A stretch of 62,882 bases of DNA, the filler included, from Kipferlia bialata (Eukaryota): the NCBI GenBank assembly GCA_003568945.1. It is 4 parts of 4 records of this genome, joined end to end, with 100 filler letters (N's around TTAATTAATTAA, not from the genome) between each part and the next. Parts side by side here need not be neighbours in the genome. Positions count along the whole stretch, not along the records: positions 22,316 to 44,519 come from BDIP01000303.1; 3 more parts are not named here. One strand, 5' to 3'. Below are positions 15,140 through 44,619 of the stretch, piece after piece (position 1 is the first letter of the stretch; every line of letters begins with the position of its first letter). A program made the translations under genes and the position numbers. A model generated the notes under the pieces. It did no database searches. It worked only from the letters and a program-made list of their open reading frames with translations, and was not told where the DNA came from.

Positions 15140-15480
15140 CTCTTCATTTCTATGCTTTCTATGCTTTCTAAGCTTTCTATTGGTTTCCATCTTCCTATGG
15201 GATCCCAGCTTTCTACGCTTTCCAGAGTTTCTAGGCCTCCCACGTCTTCCCATCCTTTCTAGGCGGTCCCTTCTTCCTTGGGGATCCCAGCTTTCTACTC
15301 CCACGCTTTCTATGTGTTCCATGTTTCTTTCTAGCCCTTCGCAGCTTTCTATTGGTTCACGTCTTTCTATCCCAAGCTTTCCCTTGGCATTCGCGTCTTT
15401 CTATTGTTTCCCAGGATTTCTACGCTTACCAAGCTTACCTGGCTTTCCAGCCGTACCGTCTCTTTCTTTTTTCCTACTGT
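15140..15480. repeat. Degenerate array of a ~9-bp GCTTTCTAN-like unit
   Basis: Many recurrences of gctttcta/ctttcta/tttcca; GGGATCCCAGCTTTCTAC occurs twice; lies between convergent gene 3' ends. Confidence 0.7.
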
Positions 15481-22215: not shown

Positions 22216-22315
22216 NNNNNNNNNNNNNNNNNNNNNNNNNNNNNNNNNNNNNNNNNNNNTTAATTAATTAANNNNNNNNNNNNNNNNNNNNNNNNNNNNN
22301 NNNNNNNNNNNNNNN
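22216..22315. other. Artificial contig linker (N44-TTAATTAATTAA-N44)
   Basis: 100-nt spacer whose core puts stops in all six frames. Confidence 0.98.
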
Positions 22316-22326
22316 TCGAGTCTATT

Positions 22327-24227
22327 ATGGGAGAGGAAGATGAGAGTCAGGAGGGGATAGTGGCAGCGTTCTGCAGGGGTATGCAGCCATGGGTGTATGA
22401 TGTTTCAGACATTCTACTTAGCAGTCCCTATTCCAGTCACGCGGTTGCTCTTGGTTACCTTTCTGTTACTGCAGAGAACCCTATCACCATCCCTAGCGTA
22501 ACTGCACTCTCTACCCTCTGTGAGCTAGCAGATGGGATGTACCCAGACAGGCCACTCTTCGACCCATATGCTTACACCCAAGAGGAGTATCTCTCTGTTG
22601 TAATCACTGCAGCAGTAAGTACACCCCTCTATATGCCTTTTTGGAGGGCTGTCTGTCGGTGTCTGGTCTCTAGGGTGTCTGAACCCTCGCCTTGCATACT
22701 GGACCTGTCTCACATCGGGAGTCTCACCTCACGTCCTGGACGGAGACGAATGACGTTGTTACTGTCTTTCCTACACAGTGTCTCTTTCACTCCATCCCTT
22801 GACTGGAGAGAAGTTGAGGTACTCTACCACCCATCTGTGCCAACTCCACTGAAAGATGTGATTAAGGCAGCATTCTCTTCGGATAAGGATCTAAACGAGG
22901 GTGTCACCTCCATCACCTTTAAGGACTGCTGTGGCCCAGAGGAGGTGTATCCCCTCATCACTGATGTCTCCATCACTCCCTACCGGATACAGATCTCCGT
23001 CCCAGGTGAGTCTTACATATGACGGTCTGAAAGAATCGAGTACCTAGATGGTTTGAATACTTCTCTCTGTCTCTATTGCTAATCTAAAGGTGTCCGGAGT
23101 AAGGTCAGTGTGATTGGCTGGGAGACAATGGTTCCAATCTCTGAGACTGAGGTACAGTGTCCTCTAGGGCTATTCAATTCACTCTGTGACAGTCATACAA
23201 TCACAAAGTACACATATTGAATTATTATATGTGTGTATACTGACAGCAGACTATATGCTCTGACCTTATCGACACAGTGCTACCGTATAGGGTTGGGCCT
23301 ATTGCACAGGACAGGCGGAGGTACAGGGAGGATAAGGGGGTGTCTGGCGGGGGTCATGTACCCTCCACTCAGAGGCGCAAGCCTGGGTGTCGTGCCCTCC
23401 CTGATCACGTCGTTGACAGTCTCGAGTACGGGGTGTGGCGTCGATCAGTAGGAGAGAGGGGGAAGATGACTCACACGTGGGAGCCAATCAAATCCCACCG
23501 AGAGGCTTGGGGTGAACCTCTCATTCTCAACGGATGTGTCCACTATCTGACCAGGAGGAGTAGTGGCGGCAACAAAACCTCTGTTCTCTCTCTAGACCTG
23601 GCAACTCATGAGTGGACAAGGCACAACCCAGTTACAAGCAGCATCGCTCCACGTACCTGGCAGCCAAGCTTTGTTATGCACGGCTGCCTGTGTGTGTTTG
23701 GTACTGACGAGTCTGATGACCGGGTGTCTGTCTGGATGTGCGATGTGTCTAGCATGGACTCAAAGGGGTTCAGGTGGCGCTGTGCGACAGAGGCACTGAT
23801 GGGGTCGGGGGGTGGCATGGCTCTGCTGCAGAGTCCCAACACTACACGCCCTGGACACAAGGAGGGATCAGTGTATGTAGAGTGTGGGGAGGACAGTTAT
23901 AGGACTCCGTATCTACTCGATGAGTCCCTGAGAGTGTCAACCATTCAGAGTGACACACTGGGGGGGCATGTGTCTGTGGGTCAGTTTGACCTACGGGCAC
24001 ACGAGTACCGCAGATACCCGCTGATTCTACACGATACTGTCAGTGGTAGGTGGTTCAGGCCCAATAACGTCCCAGACGACCTGCCGTACAACCTCCTTCC
24101 TCTAGGTCCCTACACTGTCCTAGCATATGGAGACGGACTATATCCATACCTCATTGACTTGAGTGAGTGGGTAAGGAAGGGGTGTAGGGTGTCAGCACAT
24201 CAGATTCTGCTAAGTGAGAAGGAATAG
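22327..24227 (+). CDS. Hypothetical protein with C-terminal divergent Kelch-like beta-propeller
   Basis: ORFs 22327-23005 and about 23278-24227 plus a small middle exon; blade-like motifs LNGCVHYL..VLSLDLATHEW, MHGCLCVFG..VWMCD, VGQFDL..ILHDTVSGRW. Confidence 0.6.
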
Positions 24228-24478
24228 ATAGTGCCGTGACCCAGTAGAGGTAATACACTAGAAAAACTTGGGTCTCCATGGTATGGGACCGAATGATACT
24301 ACGTCATCACACACATGACCAAACACCTCCAATACTACATTTACTCACTGGCTGACACAATTAGTGATGACTGAATATTATCACTTAGGAGATTAGATTC
24401 CCCCAAAGACAGTAAGCTTTCTACGCAAATACAGAGGGGTAACCCACACAGAGTTTGTGACAGACTATGTTAATGCAT

Positions 24479-26968
24479 CTACACAATGCTATCGTCAGGA
24501 GTAGCAGTTGTCTCCCCCTCACTCTTATCTCCCTCCATGTCTCTTTTGACCCATCCCAGCCCATACCCCAGTGCAATGGAGACTACGAACATGGCACCCA
24601 GCATGAGACCTGCAGCCATCATGATGGTGTCAGCGCCTATGATTAGAAGAATAATACTATTGCACTATATATATGTGTATCTCTGACATGATGATGCCAT
24701 GATGGTGGTAATCGGCAAAAGGTGAATTGAAACAAATCACAATACCCGGACATGATACACTTCACACTTAAGATGCAAATTAGTAGTAAGATATCATAAG
24801 ATAGAATGTGGACTAAAGCGAAGGATAAATGAGTACAATAGATATCATACTATAGAGTGTGTACTACTGGGAAGGTGGTGTTCACATCATATGGTTGTAT
24901 GTACCTAGCTCGAATGCGAACCCTGTGACGGCATAGGACACAGGCTCTAGAGCCACCCAGCAGGTCATGAGGGCACCTGGGGAGTAAGATACGCACACAT
25001 ACACACACGTATACAAACATATGTGTATACTAGCTATTCTGATTGATATTCGCCCAGCATGTCATGAGGGCCCCTAGGGGATAAGTAACAGAGTAACATA
25101 CATACGGTAAACTGTTATCAAGGACAGTCCATCGATAAGTACTCGACTCACCCATGACCTGCCCCTGGGGGTGCTGTTTTACAAATATGTAGAGTGTATA
25201 TATATGCATATGAATAGTAAACATACCCATGACCTGCCCCATGGCCATTCCAAACATATACCTATGTACTATCCATATATATATATATATAGTATATACA
25301 TAAGGTCACGTACCCATGACCTGTCCCATGGCCCCAGGTGGTGCCATTGACTGGAAGAATGTCATCACCATGGGGTTGGCAACACCGTCCAGGAAGCCCA
25401 TGATGCCTGAGGGGTGAGGTTTAGTACATAGATTAGTGACCAGCAACTGTAAGATAGATAACGGAAGGAACCATCGAGGAAGCCCATGATGCCTGAGGAG
25501 TGAGATAATGAATAGTGCAGTCTCTATCTATACAATTATTCATACTCGAAGTGAACAGATCATTGAGATTCTGTACGTGACGTACCTATCATGATTGCCA
25601 TGTATACTGTTGAATCTGCAATGCCCATGACAAAGAGACCGATGCCATACACAAAGGCCACACTGACGTTAGGGAGCATTGTGTACTACTACTAATTATT
25701 TATATGTATACGTGTCAGTCTCATGGAGAATACGGTGGGTATCTGAGGTACATACTTGACATTAATTCCAGAACACAAGCAACTCAACAGACGCATCACA
25801 GAGTCGTTCAGAAGACCTATATATAGAGGGTAAACATATATATATGTTTCAAGTATCAAATATATACATATATATAATATACTCGTACCAGAACACCAGC
25901 AGGACAACAGAGGCATCACGGAGCTTGGTGCCTGGAGTGAGAGGGTCTGTGTAAAAGTGAATCACATCACTACTCAAGACCCAAATATACACATACACAT
26001 ATATATACACGAACCACTTCATCTATGAGTACTCGGAGTGTATAGTACCGCACTTAACACATCAACAAAGTATTCAACTCTCTTAAGGGCTCCTGAATTC
26101 TCTCATATATTCCTCTCTCCATGCTCACCTGACACCATTGAGAAGAGACCCCCGGCCATTGTAGTCAGACCATACGAGGAGACCTGATGTTAACAATCAA
26201 TCAGATACGGAAGATATATATAGGACATGATTGATATATGTCAAATATGGCAACTAAAACGAAGACTACATAGAGACAGATAGTTTCAATATGACTGGGA
26301 AACACTCACCACTCTTCCATAGTCGAGAGCTGTTCCTCCCAGCTCAGACTTGATTCTGAAAGGAACACCGATGAAGAATGGACCACAGAACATGAATGTC
26401 TGGAGGGACATCACTGGGGTGAGGGTAACGAAACTATGTAGATAAGATATGGAAACTGGTGGAGGGGTATATTGCACATGAATGATTGTCTTCAATGACA
26501 TGATAGTGAAAGTAAATACACACTAGCTACCAACCTAGGAATACCAGCAGCATTGTCTTTGACTTGGCGATGAGGGCAAGTCCCGCAAAGGTGGAGGGCT
26601 TAGAGGGTGCCTCAGCATCAGCCTCTCCCTCTCCCTCTGTCTCCTTATCATCATCCTTGGCCTCTGTCTCTGTTTGTGTCTCTGGCTTGTGGATGTGCAC
26701 AAAGAGCAGGGACCCGACATGGAACACAAAGGTCAGGGCGTCGATCAGCATGGCCCAGCCAATGCCAGTCATGGTAGGGACGACCTGATGTTAGTACATA
26801 CATATCCTGCTATATTCAAATATATATAGAAAGAGAGAGAGAGAGAGAGAGAGTCAATCAGCATGGCCCAGCCAATGCCAACCATGNNNNNNNNAGAGAG
26901 AGAGAGAGTCAATCAGCATGGCCCAGCCAATGCCAACCATGGTGGGTACTACCTAGGGTAAGTGAATG

Positions 26969-27012
<44 letters not shown>

Positions 27013-29035
27013 AAGATAGAGAGAGTATATCAGCATGGCCCAGCCAATGCCAACCATTGTAGGGACAACCTGATGTTAATACATTAATATACTGCTATAT
27101 ACAAATATATATAGAAAGAGAGAGAGAGAGAGAGAGCATGGCCCAGCCAATGCCAACCATGGTGGGGACGACCTGATGTTAATACATACATATCCTGATA
27201 TGTATATATATATAGAGAGAGAGAGAGAGAGTCAATCATCATGGCCCAGCCAATGCCAATGGTGGGAACAACCTAGGGTAAGAGTGTATATAGAAAGACA
27301 AAGAGAGAGTATATATATCAGCATGCCGCTTGGAACCATGCATATATGTAGAGGAAAGACTATCTACACCAGTGTATATATGTACTTATAGATGTATACA
27401 TCTAAATATATATATATATATATATAAGACTCTAACCCATACCTCTCCAGTATCTGGATCGACCATGTCACTTGGGAACAGGGATATGACAGCACCCCCT
27501 AGGAGGGGACCCGTGAACAGAGAGGACTGGGGTGAGGTACACACAAATACACTGATACACTGATACACTGAAATAGTCAACAACAACAGACACATCCACA
27601 TGGGAATATATATATATATCACTCATACTCTTGTAGCTAGTGATGACGCAGCATTGGCAGCCTGCAGGATACTAATAGTATTCATATATATATATATACA
27701 ACACTTACCCTTGTTGCAAGGGACGCAGCAGCATTGGCAGCCTGCAGGTACTGGGAGTAGTCCTTCCTGCCACTATCTCTCTCTCTCTCTCCCTCTCCCT
27801 CTGTCTCTGTCTCTGTCTCTCCCTTTGTCTCTGTCTCTGGCTTTGCCCCAGGGGCGTTACCTATGGGTAAGACAGAGTACACATACACATAGATTGCGTA
27901 TATATCACTTCATATACTGACGTACCGTTAGACATGATGAGGGGTATCATGGCCATGTGGGCTGGGAAGTAGAGGGCGTCTGTGACCTGGGTGTCAGAGA
28001 GAGGAAGAGGGAGAGAGGGGAGATACAGTACCCCAAATGACACACTCACAAGGATAGTATTGAGAACTGAGAATTGATGTGAATGCCAATATGTGAATAT
28101 ATTAGCAGATATCATCAAATAGAGACACCATAAGGGATACTAATACCGTGCCCCAAATAGCACACTGACGATGACCAGCTGTAACTGATACTGATACATA
28201 TGGATACATAAGTATGGATACATATATATACATACGATATATACATATACATATATGTATACATTCCGTACCCCGAATAGGACACTGATGATGACCAGCT
28301 GCCATATCTCCACTGTGCCAAAGAGGATGAGGAGGGAGAGGGCTGAGGGATTAGGTTGAGTATGGAATACTCATTAAGTATATATATATATGTGTGTATA
28401 TATATACCATATCTCCACTGTGCCAAGGAGGATGAGGAGGGAGAGGGCTGGGTTAGTTAGTTGAGTAACTCTATACTCTATACACAAATCTCCATCAAGT
28501 ATATACCATATACAAATATATATATATGTATATGGATGAGTGTGAATAGGGATGGGTTAGTATAATCAGAAGTTCACGAAATATTTATATATATATACAT
28601 ATATAGTGGGCAGTGCGTCTTACCTATGACAACTGATCCCTTGAAGACTGATGCCCCCAGCACGGCCCACTTGATGTCAGGCAGCCTGGTGTTAGTACAT
28701 ATATATATATATATATATAACAAATCAGTATATATGTATGGCTGCTATGTATATGGATATCTATGATGCCCCGAGCCCACTTGATGTCATGAAGCCGGGT
28801 ATCAGTTGAATGTACCTGTCCACCAAGCTCCTCCCATACAGCATACATATTAAATCAATATTTATATATATATATATATATATGTTCAATTCATTACATA
28901 CCGCTAAGCTATCAATAATGCGTTGTTACATGCGTTGTACCTATCAACCAGGCTACCACCATACAGCATCAGCAGCCCCCTGGGTAGAGACGAGGACAGC
29001 AGTAACATGCCCAGGACAGTGCCAGAGTCAGTGAG
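24479..29035 (-). CDS. Major facilitator superfamily transporter, DHA3/MFS_3-like, about 14 exons; N-terminus missing
   Basis: Spliced in frame: LTDSGTVLGMLLLSSSLPRGLLMLYGGSLVDR|LPDIKWAVL..|..IISVLFG|VTDALYFPAHMAMIP..|SSLFTGPLLGGAVI..|..AMLIDALTF..|..FFQSMAPPGAMGQVMG|..EPVSYAVTG; MFS motif A-like GGSLVDR; TAG 24479-24481. Confidence 0.9.
26748..27280 (-). repeat. Intronic tandem copies of an acceptor plus exon start (VVPTMxGIGWAML)
   Basis: Real exon starts 26784; copies start 26952, 27069, 27172 and 27272, each running into (CT)n; one further partial copy abuts the N gap. Confidence 0.9.
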
Positions 29036-29120
29036 CTGGAGTGAGTCTGTAGAACATATATATATTGACGTGGAAGTCCAGTTCACATAGGTGGTATTGA
29101 AGTAAAGGGTATATACCTGG

Positions 29121-29168
<48 letters not shown>

Positions 29169-29273
29169 GACAGGAGGAGCATGCCTAGGACAGTGCCAGA
29201 GTCAGTGAGCTGTAATAAGTATTGTATAGTATATATATGAAGAGAAAGAGCGGGGGGGGGGGGGGGAGAGCAA

Positions 29274-29317
<44 letters not shown>

Positions 29318-29318
29318 C

Positions 29319-29720
29319 GTACTCTAGCTTCATCCCTAGGGCCTCGACTTCAAGGGTGGGGATCTCCCCCTCTGCTAGCTTGTTGAACCCCTGGTGTGAG
29401 TACTGGATCCCCGGTGAGATATATTTGTCTCAATGACTGGTGCTATTCATATAAATATATTCATAAGTAAAGCTGCCACTGAGATATAGAATGGCAGCTC
29501 CCAGAGTCACCGCTTCGAACTTACTCCGCATCCTGTCTGAGACTAAGTCCCTATAGACAGAGAGAAGGATCACTAACTGGTGTGGGAACCCTACCTCCAT
29601 AGAGAATACTGTAATGACTCCGACATCCAAGGGGTTGGGCTCTCCCCCTGGAGGACACTCCGCACACACCATGTGGATCAGCACAGTGACAACAAAGAGC
29701 ACAGCCGCACAGATGCGCAT
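29319..29720 (-). CDS. 5' fragment of a signal-peptide protein, cut off at a poly-G run
   Basis: MRICAAVLFVVTVLIHMVCA|ECPPGGEPNPLDVGVITVFSME with donor GTAGGG, next exon after ctcacaccag (GFNKLAEGEIPTLEVEALGMKL). Confidence 0.45.
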
Positions 29721-29834
29721 ACTGGCGTGGCACTGATAGAAGAGAGGCTGGATTTGAGAATAAGCATTTTTGTCTACTAGGTGATCTACACCCCTATGGC
29801 AAACTCATTTGTTGACCACCAGTCACTTCATCTA

Positions 29835-32800
29835 TTACTTTCCCCTGAGCCTTCTGCGCCAGGTGTCTCTGTTCTTGAGGGCCTTTGACAAGGTGGTCTC
29901 TCCCATACTAGCCGCAGCGTGCATCCCCAGCCTGTTACACTGCGTCACCAACAGGCGTAGGAGGGGTATAACCTGGGGAGAATGAACAGACTCAAAAGGG
30001 TAGGACACCAACTCTGTCACAAACTCTACTATATAAGAGTCGTTACCTTGCAGTCCAAGTGAGCAACTTGGCACACGCACAGGGTCTTCTCAGCCTGGGG
30101 TCCATCGCCACTGCGTTTCGAGGGTACCAGTAGACCAGCGTGTGCCTCCCTATAGCCAGACATGAGCTGCTCCCGTAGGTACTGTCTTCCAAACCTCTCT
30201 GCCACTGACCACTTCCGACTGGCATTCCCAACTGATCCCAGTAGGTAGATGGACCTGGCTAGCACTACTTGGACCTCACCTGTACTGTTAGTGGCTGACA
30301 TTGCTCAGACAGAAATGATATGCCTTGTGCAGTTACTGCACAAGGCATATCATTTCTGTCTAATCTACTGCACTGCAGTAGATTATCTACTATAATCACT
30401 CTACATATATCTTGTGTGTGCTTGTCAGACCTATGTTATCTGTAGGTACCGCAAGTGCCGAGGGTAGAATCAGCTGGGCTTTCAGATGACACAGTTGGGG
30501 TCGCACCACACCCAGTCGACCTAGTTCATCAAGGATATCGGTGGAGTTGCCCTCTACCATTAGATCCCTGATGAATCCCCTGTACACCGGGGTACAGGAG
30601 AAAACATGAGCCTTAGACAGTACCACTGAGGCCAGGTATGAGGCCTGTTGTTTGTGTGAGGTGTGAGATATGGTGCTGTAACTTGCTAACCTGAGTCTGT
30701 ATTGGGCCCTTGGTACCGTGTAGAACTGTGATCGTGTTAGCGGTACCCTTTAGATAGCCTGTGCTGTACCCGGGATGATCCATATTGGTAGCACAGGTAG
30801 CAAGCATGATGAGAAGCTGAAGTGTCGGCGGGAGCAACACTTTGCCTGGAAGACTCTCTCTGATGTATGTGGAGACTGTTACTACTGTCTGCAGGGCATC
30901 CAAGGTGAGTACACTATTGTGGAACGGATTGTCACGGTGTAACCTGTTGTCATGAATTAGAGACGCATGCAGCGGTGTTACGGTAGCCCCCTACCTGTAC
31001 ATACTGAACAGCACTTGGGTAAGGTGACGGGCCCCTATTGGCATGGCAAAGAGGGTATTGTGCGCCAGGGTTCCATGTGTGTGGAGGAACAGCCATCCAA
31101 AGGCAAATGCCCCAAACTGTGCTGTGAAGGTGTGGGCGTCAAAGGCCGGGTTGGTCACGGCACGATCCAGCATGTTGTGCGCTAGCCAGTTGCCTGCATT
31201 AGAGTGAGGGGAACAGGTGACACAGTGTTCACCCAGGAGGATGGGCGATAAAGATCTGGTTGTATTACATATCACAGTCTGTAAGTGATATTGTCACAGT
31301 GTCATACTGTGCCTGATGGACTGCTGAGTTATCGGATCTGATGATACAAATAGTACCTTCGAGGGTTTCCCAGGTGGACATTAATGAATTGACGCAGGCA
31401 CCACACGTATTCAAGCAAGTTCTGATATCCAGTAATCCAATTGGTAGCTTCGGAGGGTCATCTTGAACCGGTCCATCTGCTTTGGGGAGAAAGTATGACG
31501 CTGGGTCTTTCTTACACATCCAAGGGGAGAACTGCAGGGAGTTGGGAACCATCTGAGACCCTTTTCGCCTTAGACCATGCCTGCTAATGCCCTTCGAATC
31601 GACAAATGATCGCTGGTGCCCTGACACTATAGACTCCAAAGTGCTGGTGGCTTGGATATGTGAAGGCAGTCTCTCTACATACCCAGCAATAAGCGCAGGT
31701 TGGCCATCCTCTGTGCGTCGGACAACAGAGCTAGAGTCAGTGATGCTTACTCGGTCTCATCGTACCAGTCCACGTAGTAGAGAAGTGCAATCTGAATAAC
31801 CACATAATACACACATCAATGATATCATTTGACACCCACCCAGTGTCTCTCATCCAGTAGTAGTTTCCCTTGGGCATACGCTGTCCGTAGCAAACCTGGT
31901 AGGGTTTACGATCCATTTGGACGTCCTCCAGTGCTGTGAATACCTAGATGTGAGGTCTACAAGTGTAACGCTATCACGATTTCCAGACCCTTTAATATGA
32001 CTGCGGTCCAGGATATTGTGGCCTAGCGTGAGCAACAGATACTAGTAGAAGGCATACCCTAGGTGTGTCACGGTGCCTAATATGGGCAGGAAAAGAGCAC
32101 AGCTCCTCTCTCTCTGCAGCATCCCCTCGAATCTCACAGAGCTCTAACCAACTCCGGTACACATATGTGCGGCTGTTTTGGACTCCGCCTTGAATTGAGT
32201 GGTTAGTGAGCCAACATAACTACTATAAGGTTGGGCATACAACCGTACCTCTTGCAAGATTGTACATCCAGCTTCTACAGAGTGGTCGACAGTTGTCTGC
32301 TGCAAAGAGACCTCTCCTCGCAGTCCTTGGGGGCACAGCCACTTGTACCTTCCTGTACTCGCCGTCCTTGGGTCTGCGCTCCTCCTCAGCAGGGGCCTGG
32401 GTGTTAGGGAGAGGGTACTAGGGAATGAATACACCGTAGTATCCCCAATAGAGACCCATTCTATCTTACTATGCTGGGCCTCACCTGCCAGTCTCCGACT
32501 ACGCACTGCACCAAGGACTGTCCCTCGACCATGACCAGTTCTGCTGTGGCAGTATCCACAGAGGCCGTTTCCCCATATGCATCTCCGGCAACAGAGAGCA
32601 TCTCTATGCTGGCAGACCCGGGGCAGACTTCACACTGGTTGCCATGACCCCTATGCCGTTGGGGCACCAGATGACCTTGGCGGTGGGTGTACAACCACCC
32701 GCTTGCTACAGATTGGGATAGCCTTCGCATGTGCTCCTGAATGGGTAGAAACACGGGTTCAGACCGAAGATCCTGAAATTAGGGTCAAGGATGTGTAATC

Positions 32801-38241: not shown

Positions 38242-38654
38242 GGATTGTGTCTGGGGAGTGGGAGGACGGCACTCCAATCGAGAGACAGGCAGCAGGTGGG
38301 ATGTGTTAAGTGTATCCGCTCAATGCTAGTAAGGGGCGCCCCTCGGTGTGTCTCTGATCACACCACAGTAGTCAATGACTGTTCACATCTATGTGACCGT
38401 GACACCAGGCATAGTGTCCGGAGAATGGGAGGACGGCACCCCAATTGCCAGGCAATCAACAGGTATAGGATACAAACATTGTCACATTGACTACATGAGA
38501 AATGATACAGTGCCTTATGTCATTAGAATTATGGTGTCACGCGTCCCTAGTATCCCTATATGAGTGCAATCTACTAGCCTCTATCTTCTTCCCATAACAG
38601 GCATAGTGTCTGGGGAATGGGAGGACGGGACTCCAATTGCCAGGGTGTCTGCAG
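38242..38654 (+). repeat. Three tandem 54-nt exon-like units encoding (G/R)IVSGEWEDGTPI
   Basis: Units 38242-38295, 38409-38462 and 38601-38654; each ends at G|GT; units 2 and 3 are preceded by an acceptor; phase 1-1. Confidence 0.85.
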
Positions 38655-39664
38655 GTACACCAATATCTCTATATATTAATGCGTACCCACAGCCCTCCCT
38701 ATCCTTTCCCCCGTGACTCTAGGCCACAGACAGATATGCTACCCTGTAGCATGTGACGTAGCTCCTGTGTGCTACTTGTGCTGGGACATATAGTATGGTG
38801 GAGTGAGTCACTCCAAGTGACGAGGGAGAGTGTCCTCAGCCCCTGAGTCAGTGTATGTGTGTTATGATAAATGTGGATCTGGACGTATCCGTGTGTGTAT
38901 CCGTGTAGACATGAGATTTGAGTCTGAAAGTGAGGCTTGGCCTGATCAAAGCATCGACGCATCATTAGCTCAAACGTCTTAAACCACACTGATCAGTCTG
39001 ACTAGGGTACCTATTCATCTCTTCACGGTATTAGTGCGTATCAACCACTTCCAAATAGGAGAGAGGAGACTATGTGGGGTGGTAATACTTCAGGTAGGCT
39101 ATTTGTCTAGCGTATCCGCTATTGGTGGGGTTACTCATCATACGGTCACTCACACTGTTTCAGTATCATCTCATACTTGATAGACAGTCAACGTATACCA
39201 TAGTGGTGTGGCGACACAGCTGTCTACCTCTTCACCCTAACCCCCAGGCTCCTCAGGTGCATTCAGTTTCTCGAGTGCAGATACCCCCCCAGATGCCACT
39301 GGGTCCTCTGTCTTCAGTGGTCATGCCGCTGCTAATAGGCAGTCAGTGTTCGGTGCATCAAAGGCATCTGCCGGATGGGGTCAGGCCACAGGTGGGTGAA
39401 CCTCTCACTATCTCCTACTCTCTCTCTCTTTGCCCCCCCCCCCCTACTCCCCTTTACTCTCCCCTTCTCTTTTACATGCCACTGTTTTGTGTCTTCTCCC
39501 CCTGTGTTGAGTACACTGTACTCACTCAATGCCCTTCACACTCTCTGCCCATGTTTCTCCTTTCAATATATATGTGTGTCTGGCTATACATGCCTCTCTC
39601 TCTCACTCCAGCCACCTCTGGTTGGGGTCACCCTTCCTCCTCCACCCCTACCCCCCTTGGGGCT

Positions 39665-44519: not shown

Positions 44520-44619
44520 NNNNNNNNNNNNNNNNNNNNNNNNNNNNNNNNNNNNNNNNNNNNTTAATTAATTAANNNNNNNNNNNNNNNNNNNNNNNNN
44601 NNNNNNNNNNNNNNNNNNN
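44520..44619. other. Artificial contig linker
   Basis: N44-TTAATTAATTAA-N44. Confidence 0.98.

What the first reader, a model, noticed from the sequence alone, without database searches (positions are those of the whole stretch)
26748..27280. Stack of decoy acceptors with silent-site variation across five VVPT starts
Seen: first four codons are GTC GTC CCT ACC (real, 26784), GTA GTA CCC ACC (26952), GTT GTC CCT ACA (27069), GTC GTC CCC ACC (27172), GTT GTT CCC ACC (27272, followed by an in-frame 3-nt loss). All encode VVPT. Each keeps an intact acceptor of one of two types (taacatcag or ttaccctag) but runs into (CT)n with no nearby donor. Inference: the spliceosome must skip four good upstream acceptors, or use them stepwise as in recursive splicing (each AG is followed by GT).
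Basis: partly seen in the sequence, partly recalled or inferred. Interest (0 to 1): 0.8.

Follow-up and report, generated by a model that had tools for sequence, protein, structure and literature searches.

The report
Stacked splice-junction echoes from diverged alleles
An intron of a transporter gene in the free-living protist Kipferlia holds a stack of spare copies of the next exon's start and splice signal, which the assembled RNA skips; such copies in three genes differ from the working exon mostly at silent positions, so they are likely leftovers of different working alleles pasted side by side by uneven recombination.

Summary
The stack lies in intron 6 of the model (27442-26785, minus strand) of a Kipferlia bialata MFS transporter gene. 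DNA contigs support three of the four decoys and suggest a fifth inside the N gap. An RNA contig joins the donor straight to the last acceptor.

Recursive splicing is not supported. The GT is simply a valine codon, and only 1 of 8 other intact acceptor copies starts with GT.

This is a 'mirage', a tandem copy of an exon/intron boundary known from amphioxus. In three genes chosen for having repeats, 15 of 40 intron-facing exon edges carry one, against 0 of 840 control pairs.

The copies are too silent-biased to be dead duplicates. pN/pS is 0.17 (0.10-0.26), against at least 0.5 for duplicate-and-decay, and splice-signal bases are conserved too. Each version was therefore probably functional while it diverged, most likely as a different allele joined later by unequal recombination. 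No second isolate was found to test this.

The parts
26535..26784 (-). Live exon 7 of the model (250 nt), starting VVPTMTGIGWAMLID; acceptor with branch motif CTAAC at -7
   Evidence: RNA contig 10; spliced model found verbatim in P0001
26785..27442 (-). Intron holding the stack; 658 nt as assembled, inferred at least about 30 nt longer because of the N gap
26848..26894 (-). Sixth copy, cut by the 8-N gap; its first codons and a third acceptor type are inferred from an 85-nt DNA contig
   Evidence: (records 3 and 5)
26903..26962 (-). Decoy 26952 with CTTAC-type acceptor
   Evidence: record 6
27028..27079 (-). Decoy 27069 with TTAAC-type acceptor
   Evidence: record 4
27135..27182 (-). Decoy 27172 with TTAAC-type acceptor; assembly only
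   Evidence: not among contigs laid
27229..27282 (-). Decoy 27272 with CTTAC-type acceptor; 3-nt loss and one L>M change; furthest from the exon and most decayed
   Evidence: record 2
27297..27342 (-). Possible older remnant of a core plus tail (weak)
   Evidence: by eye only
27443..27526 (-). Upstream exon 6 and its donor
   Evidence: RNA contig 10
24470..29035 (-). MFS transporter gene: 14 modelled exons encoding the last 458 residues of P0001 (Pfam MFS_1, weak MFS_3)
29160..29222 (-). Acceptor echo of exon 1 of the model
28764..28844 (-). Donor echo of exon 1 and acceptor echo of exon 2 (AG lost)
   Evidence: DNA record 6
28407..28460 (-). Acceptor echo of exon 3
   Evidence: DNA record 5
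28023..28181 (-). Two donor echoes of exon 3
27623..27668 (-). Donor echo of exon 5; the RNA carries the first copy's end
   Evidence: tables 5 and 5c
25762..25803 (-). Donor echo of exon 10 (GT lost)
25470..25506 (-). Acceptor echo of exon 12, skipped in RNA
25053..25246 (-). Two donor echoes of exon 12 and an acceptor echo of exon 13 in one intron, all skipped in RNA contig 9
59984..62097 (+). Second gene (small predicted membrane protein) with 12 anchored echoes in 5 stacks
   Evidence: model from open frame only, no RNA laid
54730..55785 (-). Third gene (Pfam UPF0047) with 3 anchored echoes
   Evidence: model from open frame and Pfam, no RNA laid

Best explanation
The stack is a set of tandem copies of one intron/exon boundary that the assembled RNA splices out whole, and the copies are likely former working versions of that boundary from different alleles, placed side by side by unequal recombination or aborted homologous repair. 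SHOWN: the copies are in DNA contigs; the RNA contig uses only the acceptor next to the intact exon; acceptor copies always lie upstream and donor copies downstream of the live site; differences fall at silent codon positions and free splice-signal positions. INFERRED (strongly): both versions were under selection for most of their separate history, which one chromosome cannot provide because only one copy can be live. INFERRED: the donors were alleles rather than lost paralogs. Later unequal exchanges in the shared core (codons 7-12, invariant) would have collected several spacer+acceptor+codon 1-4 modules. INFERRED: the decoys are ignored because sites are paired across the exon, or decoy-spliced RNA is degraded; the three decoys whose frame avoids the N gap hit a stop within 26-63 codons.
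For: RNA joint 27442 to 26785, and outermost sites used in introns 5, 10, 11 and 12; introns 1-2 are consistent. DNA contigs with their own flanks cover 3 of 4 decoys plus the gap copy at depth 343-452, against 450 for the flank. Echoes occur at 15 of 40 intron-facing edges, 0 of 40 far edges and 0 of 840 non-adjacent pairs. For 28 anchored echoes in 19 stacks there are 51 silent and 28 non-silent unique differences: pN/pS 0.17, stack bootstrap 0.10-0.26, p = 1.3e-4 against the duplicate-and-decay expectation. Without the VVPT stack it is 0.18; with all 40 segments it is 0.28 (0.19-0.39), p = 0.007. Simulated duplicate-and-decay through the same detector reached the observed silent fraction (0.61) in 0 of 300 runs in five settings and 2 of 258 in the sixth. 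GC-neutral changes alone are 15 of 21 silent, p = 2e-4. Splice-signal bases differ at 6 of 81 constrained and 71 of 152 free positions. Metamonads lack NHEJ and are thought to depend on homologous recombination (PMC8516963, passages). Aborted SDSA finished by alternative end joining is an established route (PMC8951532, passages).
Against: No diverged allele was seen. The one DNA run shows no other letters at 90% likeness, and at 80% only the stack's own copies and one distant paralog. Two metagenome scans found no relative. A silent difference rate of 0.26-0.30 would need unusually diverged alleles (my knowledge). Silent differences are lopsided (live G/C to echo A/T 26, reverse 8, p = 0.003), which a symmetric two-allele swap does not predict. 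Echo ends are not enriched for microsatellites (12 of 28 vs background 0.35, p = 0.24), so the microhomology step has no support here. Taken singly, only the MFS gene beats the decay bound (p = 5e-4; the other two p = 0.13 and 0.15). The genes were picked because they had repeats, and two of the three models lack RNA. The DNA run may be the window's own source.
Confidence: 0.58

Rival explanations
1. Ordinary mirage: same-chromatid tandem duplication (slippage or microhomology-mediated), then neutral decay. The silent bias arises only because the live exon keeps changing at silent sites.
For: Microhomology-mediated tandem duplications are common across species (PMC13167724, passages). One echo is identical to the live end (61824). 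The furthest VVPT copy is the most decayed. The G/C-to-A/T skew fits decay.
Against: It predicts pN/pS of at least 0.5; observed 0.17 (0.10-0.26). Simulations do not reach the observed fraction. Decoy-versus-decoy changes are 6 silent to 1 non-silent. Branch motif and GT/AG are kept while free positions diverge by 47%. The live exon's silent rate would have to be about five times neutral, and GC-neutral changes show the same excess.
Confidence: 0.13
2. The diverged working versions came from paralogs, since lost or unassembled, by ectopic conversion rather than from alleles.
For: An expressed paralog with an intron at the same place exists in DNA and RNA contigs (records 2 and 8). It would supply selected divergence without extreme allelic diversity.
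Against: That paralog differs at 9 of 51 positions and has other residues at codons 5-6, while the decoys match the live core, so it is not the donor. No close paralog protein was found in three searches (limited sensitivity). Three unrelated genes would each need several donors.
Confidence: 0.13
3. The copies are translated at times, as alternative starts or as remnants of mutually exclusive exons, so selection acts on them in place.
For: It would give low pN/pS directly. A triple at 38244-38655 looks like whole small-exon copies with silent changes.
Against: Decoy use meets a stop at codon 63, 26 or 39 (the 26952 frame crosses the N gap). No RNA contig carries decoy letters. Decay of whole-exon duplicates should leave far-edge remnants too, and there are 0 of 40.
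Confidence: 0.07
4. Recursive (stepwise) splicing through the AG|GT sites, or a selected regulatory decoy array.
For: Each AG in the stack is followed by GT, and the acceptors are intact. A mature-RNA contig cannot exclude intermediates.
Against: The GT is forced by the valine codon. 1 of 8 other intact acceptor echoes starts with GT. Regenerated donors have T at +5, seen in 1 of 21 modelled donors. The intron is only about 0.7 kb. It does not explain conserved first and second codon positions or the donor-side echoes.
Confidence: 0.04
5. Assembly artefact: alleles or repeats placed in tandem by a short-read assembler.
For: There is an N gap inside the array with identical 47-nt flanks, and the published K. 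bialata draft is short-read (PMC5874029, passages).
Against: One 4506-nt DNA contig holds the echoes of introns 10-12 with 0 differences. Array copies have their own contigs at near flank depth, and the shared core is at about double depth. The tool warns that depth is not copy number, so copy number and order remain provisional.
Confidence: 0.04

Closest known systems
Amphioxus 'mirages' (Adh3, globins BflGb6 and BflGb9, PGBD5): PMC3087553 passages, PMC3902484 passage; Canestro 2002 not held
   Same: Tandem copies spanning an intron/exon boundary, at 5' or 3' boundaries, many with intact AG/GT, with normal splicing; unit length 100-170 nt here, 150-160 nt in BflGb6.
   Different: Here a metamonad protist; units are irregular, with microsatellite spacers and two or three acceptor types; echoes sit at most introns of a gene; silent bias exceeds the decay bound. 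The passages read report no silent/non-silent analysis and call the generating mechanism unclear.
Human F7 intron 7 37-bp VNTR (PMC1557585, abstract and outline)
   Same: Functional pseudo-splice sites in tandem stay silent; the site next to the intact exon is used.
   Different: Donor side only, with pseudo-sites identical in sequence; explained by 5'-to-3' scanning, which cannot explain use of the last acceptor here.
Human CBS 844ins68 (PMC4479818, passage)
   Same: Duplicates the splice site at an intron/exon junction.
   Different: A single recent duplication. That splicing removes the insert is recalled, not read.
Microhomology-mediated tandem duplication (PMC13167724, passages) and aborted SDSA with alternative end joining (PMC8951532, passages)
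   Same: Plausible routes to short local duplications.
   Different: Same-chromatid routes give identical copies; the pattern here needs a diverged working template. Microsatellite-linked ends were not enriched.
Intron gain by tandem duplication of an AGGT exon segment (search listings; Gao and Lynch 2009 not held)
   Same: Internal duplication involving splice signals.
   Different: There only exon sequence is copied and a new intron arises; here existing intron ends are copied with the exon edge and no new intron is seen.

Membership tests
Mirage (boundary minisatellite) | Tandem duplication spanning an intron/exon boundary | tested here: met
Mirage (boundary minisatellite) | Many units keep AG/GT signals | tested here: met
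   4 of 4 assembled decoys keep branch motif and AG; 6 of 81 constrained positions differ overall
Mirage (boundary minisatellite) | Normal mRNA is still made | tested here: met
   RNA contigs 9-11; one sample, contigs only
Mirage (boundary minisatellite) | Both 5' and 3' boundaries can be copied | tested here: met
   donor and acceptor echoes
Mirage (boundary minisatellite) | Length differs between haplotypes or cells | not testable with these tools
   one sample; no relatives in metagenome scans
Mirage (boundary minisatellite) | Concerted evolution within the cluster | tested here: inconclusive
   codons 7-12 invariant and codon 6 shared by most decoys, but codons 1-4 and acceptors heterogeneous
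Recursive splice site (features recalled) | AG immediately followed by GT | tested here: met
   forced by the valine codon
Recursive splice site (features recalled) | Regenerated donor fits the organism's donor consensus | tested here: not met
   +5 T in all four decoys; 1 of 21 modelled donors has it, 15 have G
Recursive splice site (features recalled) | Intermediates or lariats at the site | not testable with these tools
   only assembled contigs available
Intron gain by tandem duplication | Intron ends are copies of flanking exon sequence only | tested here: not met
   copies include intronic branch point and AG, or GT and intron start
Mutually exclusive exons | Each copy has acceptor, donor and an open frame | tested here: not met
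   stops within 26-63 codons; 0 of 40 far-edge remnants

The most novel reading that the evidence does not exclude
Kipferlia introns are an archive of displaced alleles. Recombination between strongly diverged homologs repeatedly overwrites exon edges and pushes the previous working splice junction into the intron, so one genome records past allelic exchange (cryptic sex) in a free-living fornicate. Its reduced spliceosome copes by pairing sites across exons, even though the introns are short.
Probability: 0.4. Interest if true: 0.72.

Novelty: new variant of a known kind. Interest (0 to 1): 0.5.

Why it matters
The origin of mirages is called unclear in the paper read. The bound 'pN/pS of at least 0.5 for a dead duplicate' is a test that runs on a single genome, and these copies fail it. 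If the donors are alleles, the copies are fossil evidence of recombination between very divergent homologs in a fornicate, a group whose sexuality is debated (my knowledge). The genes are also natural splice-choice experiments: a consensus acceptor 170 nt from the donor is passed over for one at least 658 nt away, in an organism with 87 of 174 spliceosomal proteins detected and no snRNA candidates found (PMC6679479, passages). If the silent bias fades genome-wide, this is an ordinary tolerated repeat.

Tried and rejected
Whole-genome search: no genome is held for this window, so there is no genome-wide count. Sequencing runs: 2 listed, one sample, no holder on record as RNA; X2 is a guess but shows spliced joints. 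Missing cover of decoys in RNA contigs and of the 27172 copy in DNA contigs proves nothing by itself. Metagenome scans: 65 and 596 pattern matches, none confirmed. Homolog searches found only the protein itself and distant MFS proteins, 20-37% identical in local alignments. Microsatellite-at-breakpoint test was negative. I first took the identical flanks of the N gap for an artefact; argues against it. Purging of non-silent echo changes through conversion into the live exon was rejected by argument: conversion frequent enough to purge would also erase the silent divergence. GC-biased change in the live copy as sole cause was rejected. Whether K. bialata has nonsense-mediated decay: one paper search gave nothing relevant. 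No description of these echoes in Kipferlia or another protist turned up or in the passages. The library lacks most subscription papers, three look-ups for two key papers failed, and no supplements were opened; the mirage alignments in the PMC3087553 supplements could bear on whether silent bias was already visible. Earlier-findings look-ups by place, words and sequence gave nothing on this genome.
Full report
Setting. The window is four contigs joined by N spacers. The finding lies on the minus strand in an intron of a gene whose product is P0001, named by its source a major facilitator superfamily protein of Kipferlia bialata (Pfam MFS_1 E = 1e-20). A 14-exon model built by coordinates translates to 458 residues found verbatim in P0001. 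The intron runs 27442-26785.

Observation. There are six core copies; one is cut by an 8-N gap. Laying DNA contigs on the live exon start alone gave 6 records: the main contig (depth 450), a paralog (423), a 58-nt shared core (896), the 27069 copy (452), the 26952 copy (343) and an 85-nt piece with a third acceptor (388), which I infer belongs in the gap. The 27272 copy lies in its own contig (428). The DNA run may be the window's source and depth is not a strict copy number, so the array is probably real but its order is provisional. Among the four full decoys, codons 1-12 need at least 6 silent and 1 non-silent change (p = 0.0011); codons 7-12 are invariant.

Splicing. Run X2 is only guessed to be RNA, but its contigs skip GT..AG introns of the model. 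Contig 10 joins exon 6 directly to 26784. The 2 RNA records laid on the exon start at 80% likeness were the live form and the paralog. Use of decoys 27272, 27172 or 27069 would meet a stop at codon 63, 26 or 39. Contigs drop rare forms, so minor decoy use, or use hidden by RNA decay, is open. Recursion has no support. The GT is the valine codon. Only 1 of 8 AG-retaining acceptor copies elsewhere starts with GT. The would-be donors have T at +5, found in 1 of 21 modelled donors.

The pattern is general. Frame-blind self-comparison showed short local repeats in this gene and two others on other contigs. I modelled those genes (no RNA for the other two) and searched each intron for copies of the adjacent exons. 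This gave 40 segments at score 11 or more, a level at which 32 of 970 non-adjacent pairs also hit. Requiring anchoring at the junction and score 15 left 28 echoes in 19 stacks. The 12 dropped include chance hits, the gapped 27272 copy and the cut copy. Anchored echoes occur at 15 of 40 intron-facing edges, 0 of 40 far edges and 0 of 840 non-adjacent pairs. Because the genes were chosen for having repeats, this is not a genome-wide rate. Where RNA covers them, the outermost sites are used (introns 5, 6, 10, 11, 12; introns 1-2 consistent).

Why simple decay fails. After a duplication on one chromosome only one copy can be live. Silent sites then diverge on both branches and non-silent sites on the dead branch, so pN/pS cannot fall much below 0.5. 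Observed, with shared variants counted once per stack: 51 silent and 28 non-silent, pN/pS 0.17, bootstrap 0.10-0.26, p = 1.3e-4 against the spectrum-matched decay expectation (0.435 silent vs 0.646 observed). It is 0.18 without the VVPT stack and 0.28 (0.19-0.39) with all 40 segments. By gene, only the MFS gene is significant against this bound. Simulated decay through the same detector gave silent fractions of 0.37-0.43 and reached 0.61 in 2 of 1758 scored runs. GC-neutral changes show the same excess (15 of 21). Splice signals, which were not used for detection, behave the same way: 6 of 81 constrained positions differ against 71 of 152 free ones (three acceptors skipped for register, and free donor positions may include non-homologous sequence).

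Mechanism. Both versions must have worked for most of their separate history, which points to different chromosomes. The one paralog seen is too distant to be the donor. I therefore favour alleles, joined by unequal exchange or by homologous repair that copies across the homolog's splice site and ends by alternative joining. Metamonads lack NHEJ (PMC8516963, passages), and aborted SDSA with alternative end joining is established in Drosophila (PMC8951532, passages). Once one echo exists, exchanges in the shared core would collect more spacer+acceptor+codon 1-4 modules, which fits an invariant core beside varied starts and two or three acceptor types. This part is inference. Against it: no second allele or isolate was found; the alleles would have to be very divergent; silent differences are skewed toward A/T in the echoes (26 vs 8); echo ends are not enriched for microsatellites. 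Skipping of decoys is most simply explained by pairing of sites across the exon, since the live site is always the one next to the intact exon, with RNA decay as an untested alternative (one search gave nothing relevant).

Known kind. An earlier scan note (e1-7787241) pointed to amphioxus 'mirages', and I checked the papers. PMC3087553 (passages) describes minisatellite-like duplications of intron/exon boundaries at either end, many with AG/GT, not disturbing splicing, with mechanism unclear; PMC3902484 (passage) agrees. The stack meets the four features I could test fully; haplotype length variation could not be tested and concerted evolution is inconclusive. Human F7 (abstract) and CBS 844ins68 (passage) are related cases. 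Another scan note (e1-7880682) reports silent-biased mirage copies in a sea urchin and calls the effect expected; I did not check it, and it is not independent support. I found no report of mirages in a protist, nor of the pN/pS bound. Canestro 2002 and Gao and Lynch 2009 were not held, and no supplements were read.

Verdict. A real but probably non-functional structure of a known kind. The new points are its occurrence and density in a metamonad and the quantitative sign that the copies were once working versions. New variant of a known kind; interest 0.5. The bold reading, introns as an archive of displaced alleles, has probability about 0.4 and would deserve about 0.72.

Noticed in passing
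window 38244-38655 (+): Three copies of a 17-codon stretch (IVSGEWEDGTPI...) with many silent differences. The second and third have possible acceptors and GT donors about 55 nt apart, so they may be whole small-exon duplicates or mutually exclusive exons. Left out of the statistics.
   Followed up: partly
records 2 (DNA) and 8 (RNA), laid on window 26716-26766: An expressed paralog of the MFS gene with an intron at the same position; it did not appear in the protein searches.
   Followed up: partly
window 24470-29035 (-), P0001: The closest relatives found are about 23% identical proteins of 385-432 aa from JGI, ENA and Logan sources, one named an MFS arabinose efflux permease. This may be a laterally acquired gene that gained at least 13 introns; not tested. 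The first 150 residues of P0001 are upstream of my model and look like a possible over-extended prediction.
   Followed up: no
all modelled acceptors: The branch motif CTNAY sits 7-9 nt from the intron end in 21 of 23 acceptors (TTAAC in one more), with no polypyrimidine tract between it and the AG; this resembles the fused branch/acceptor recalled for Giardia and Trichomonas.
   Followed up: partly
window 24001-32000, 52001-56000, 60001-62882: The 4-kb bins with anchored echoes are mostly those richest in dinucleotide microsatellite (165-311 bp, against 8-140 elsewhere). Only three genes were scanned, so this is confounded.
   Followed up: partly
window 22216-22315, 44520-44619, 59771-59870: Spacers of N around a 12-nt all-frame stop linker join four separate contigs; the three echo-rich genes lie on three different contigs.
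   Followed up: yes
window 11991-12074: An identical 29-nt sequence flanks a 26-N gap; possibly a gap-overlap artefact.
   Followed up: no
window 15147-15468: Degenerate low-period repeat region (about 9-10 nt units).
   Followed up: no
window 30262-30340: A long perfect-looking inverted repeat read by eye; possibly a hairpin or element end.
   Followed up: no
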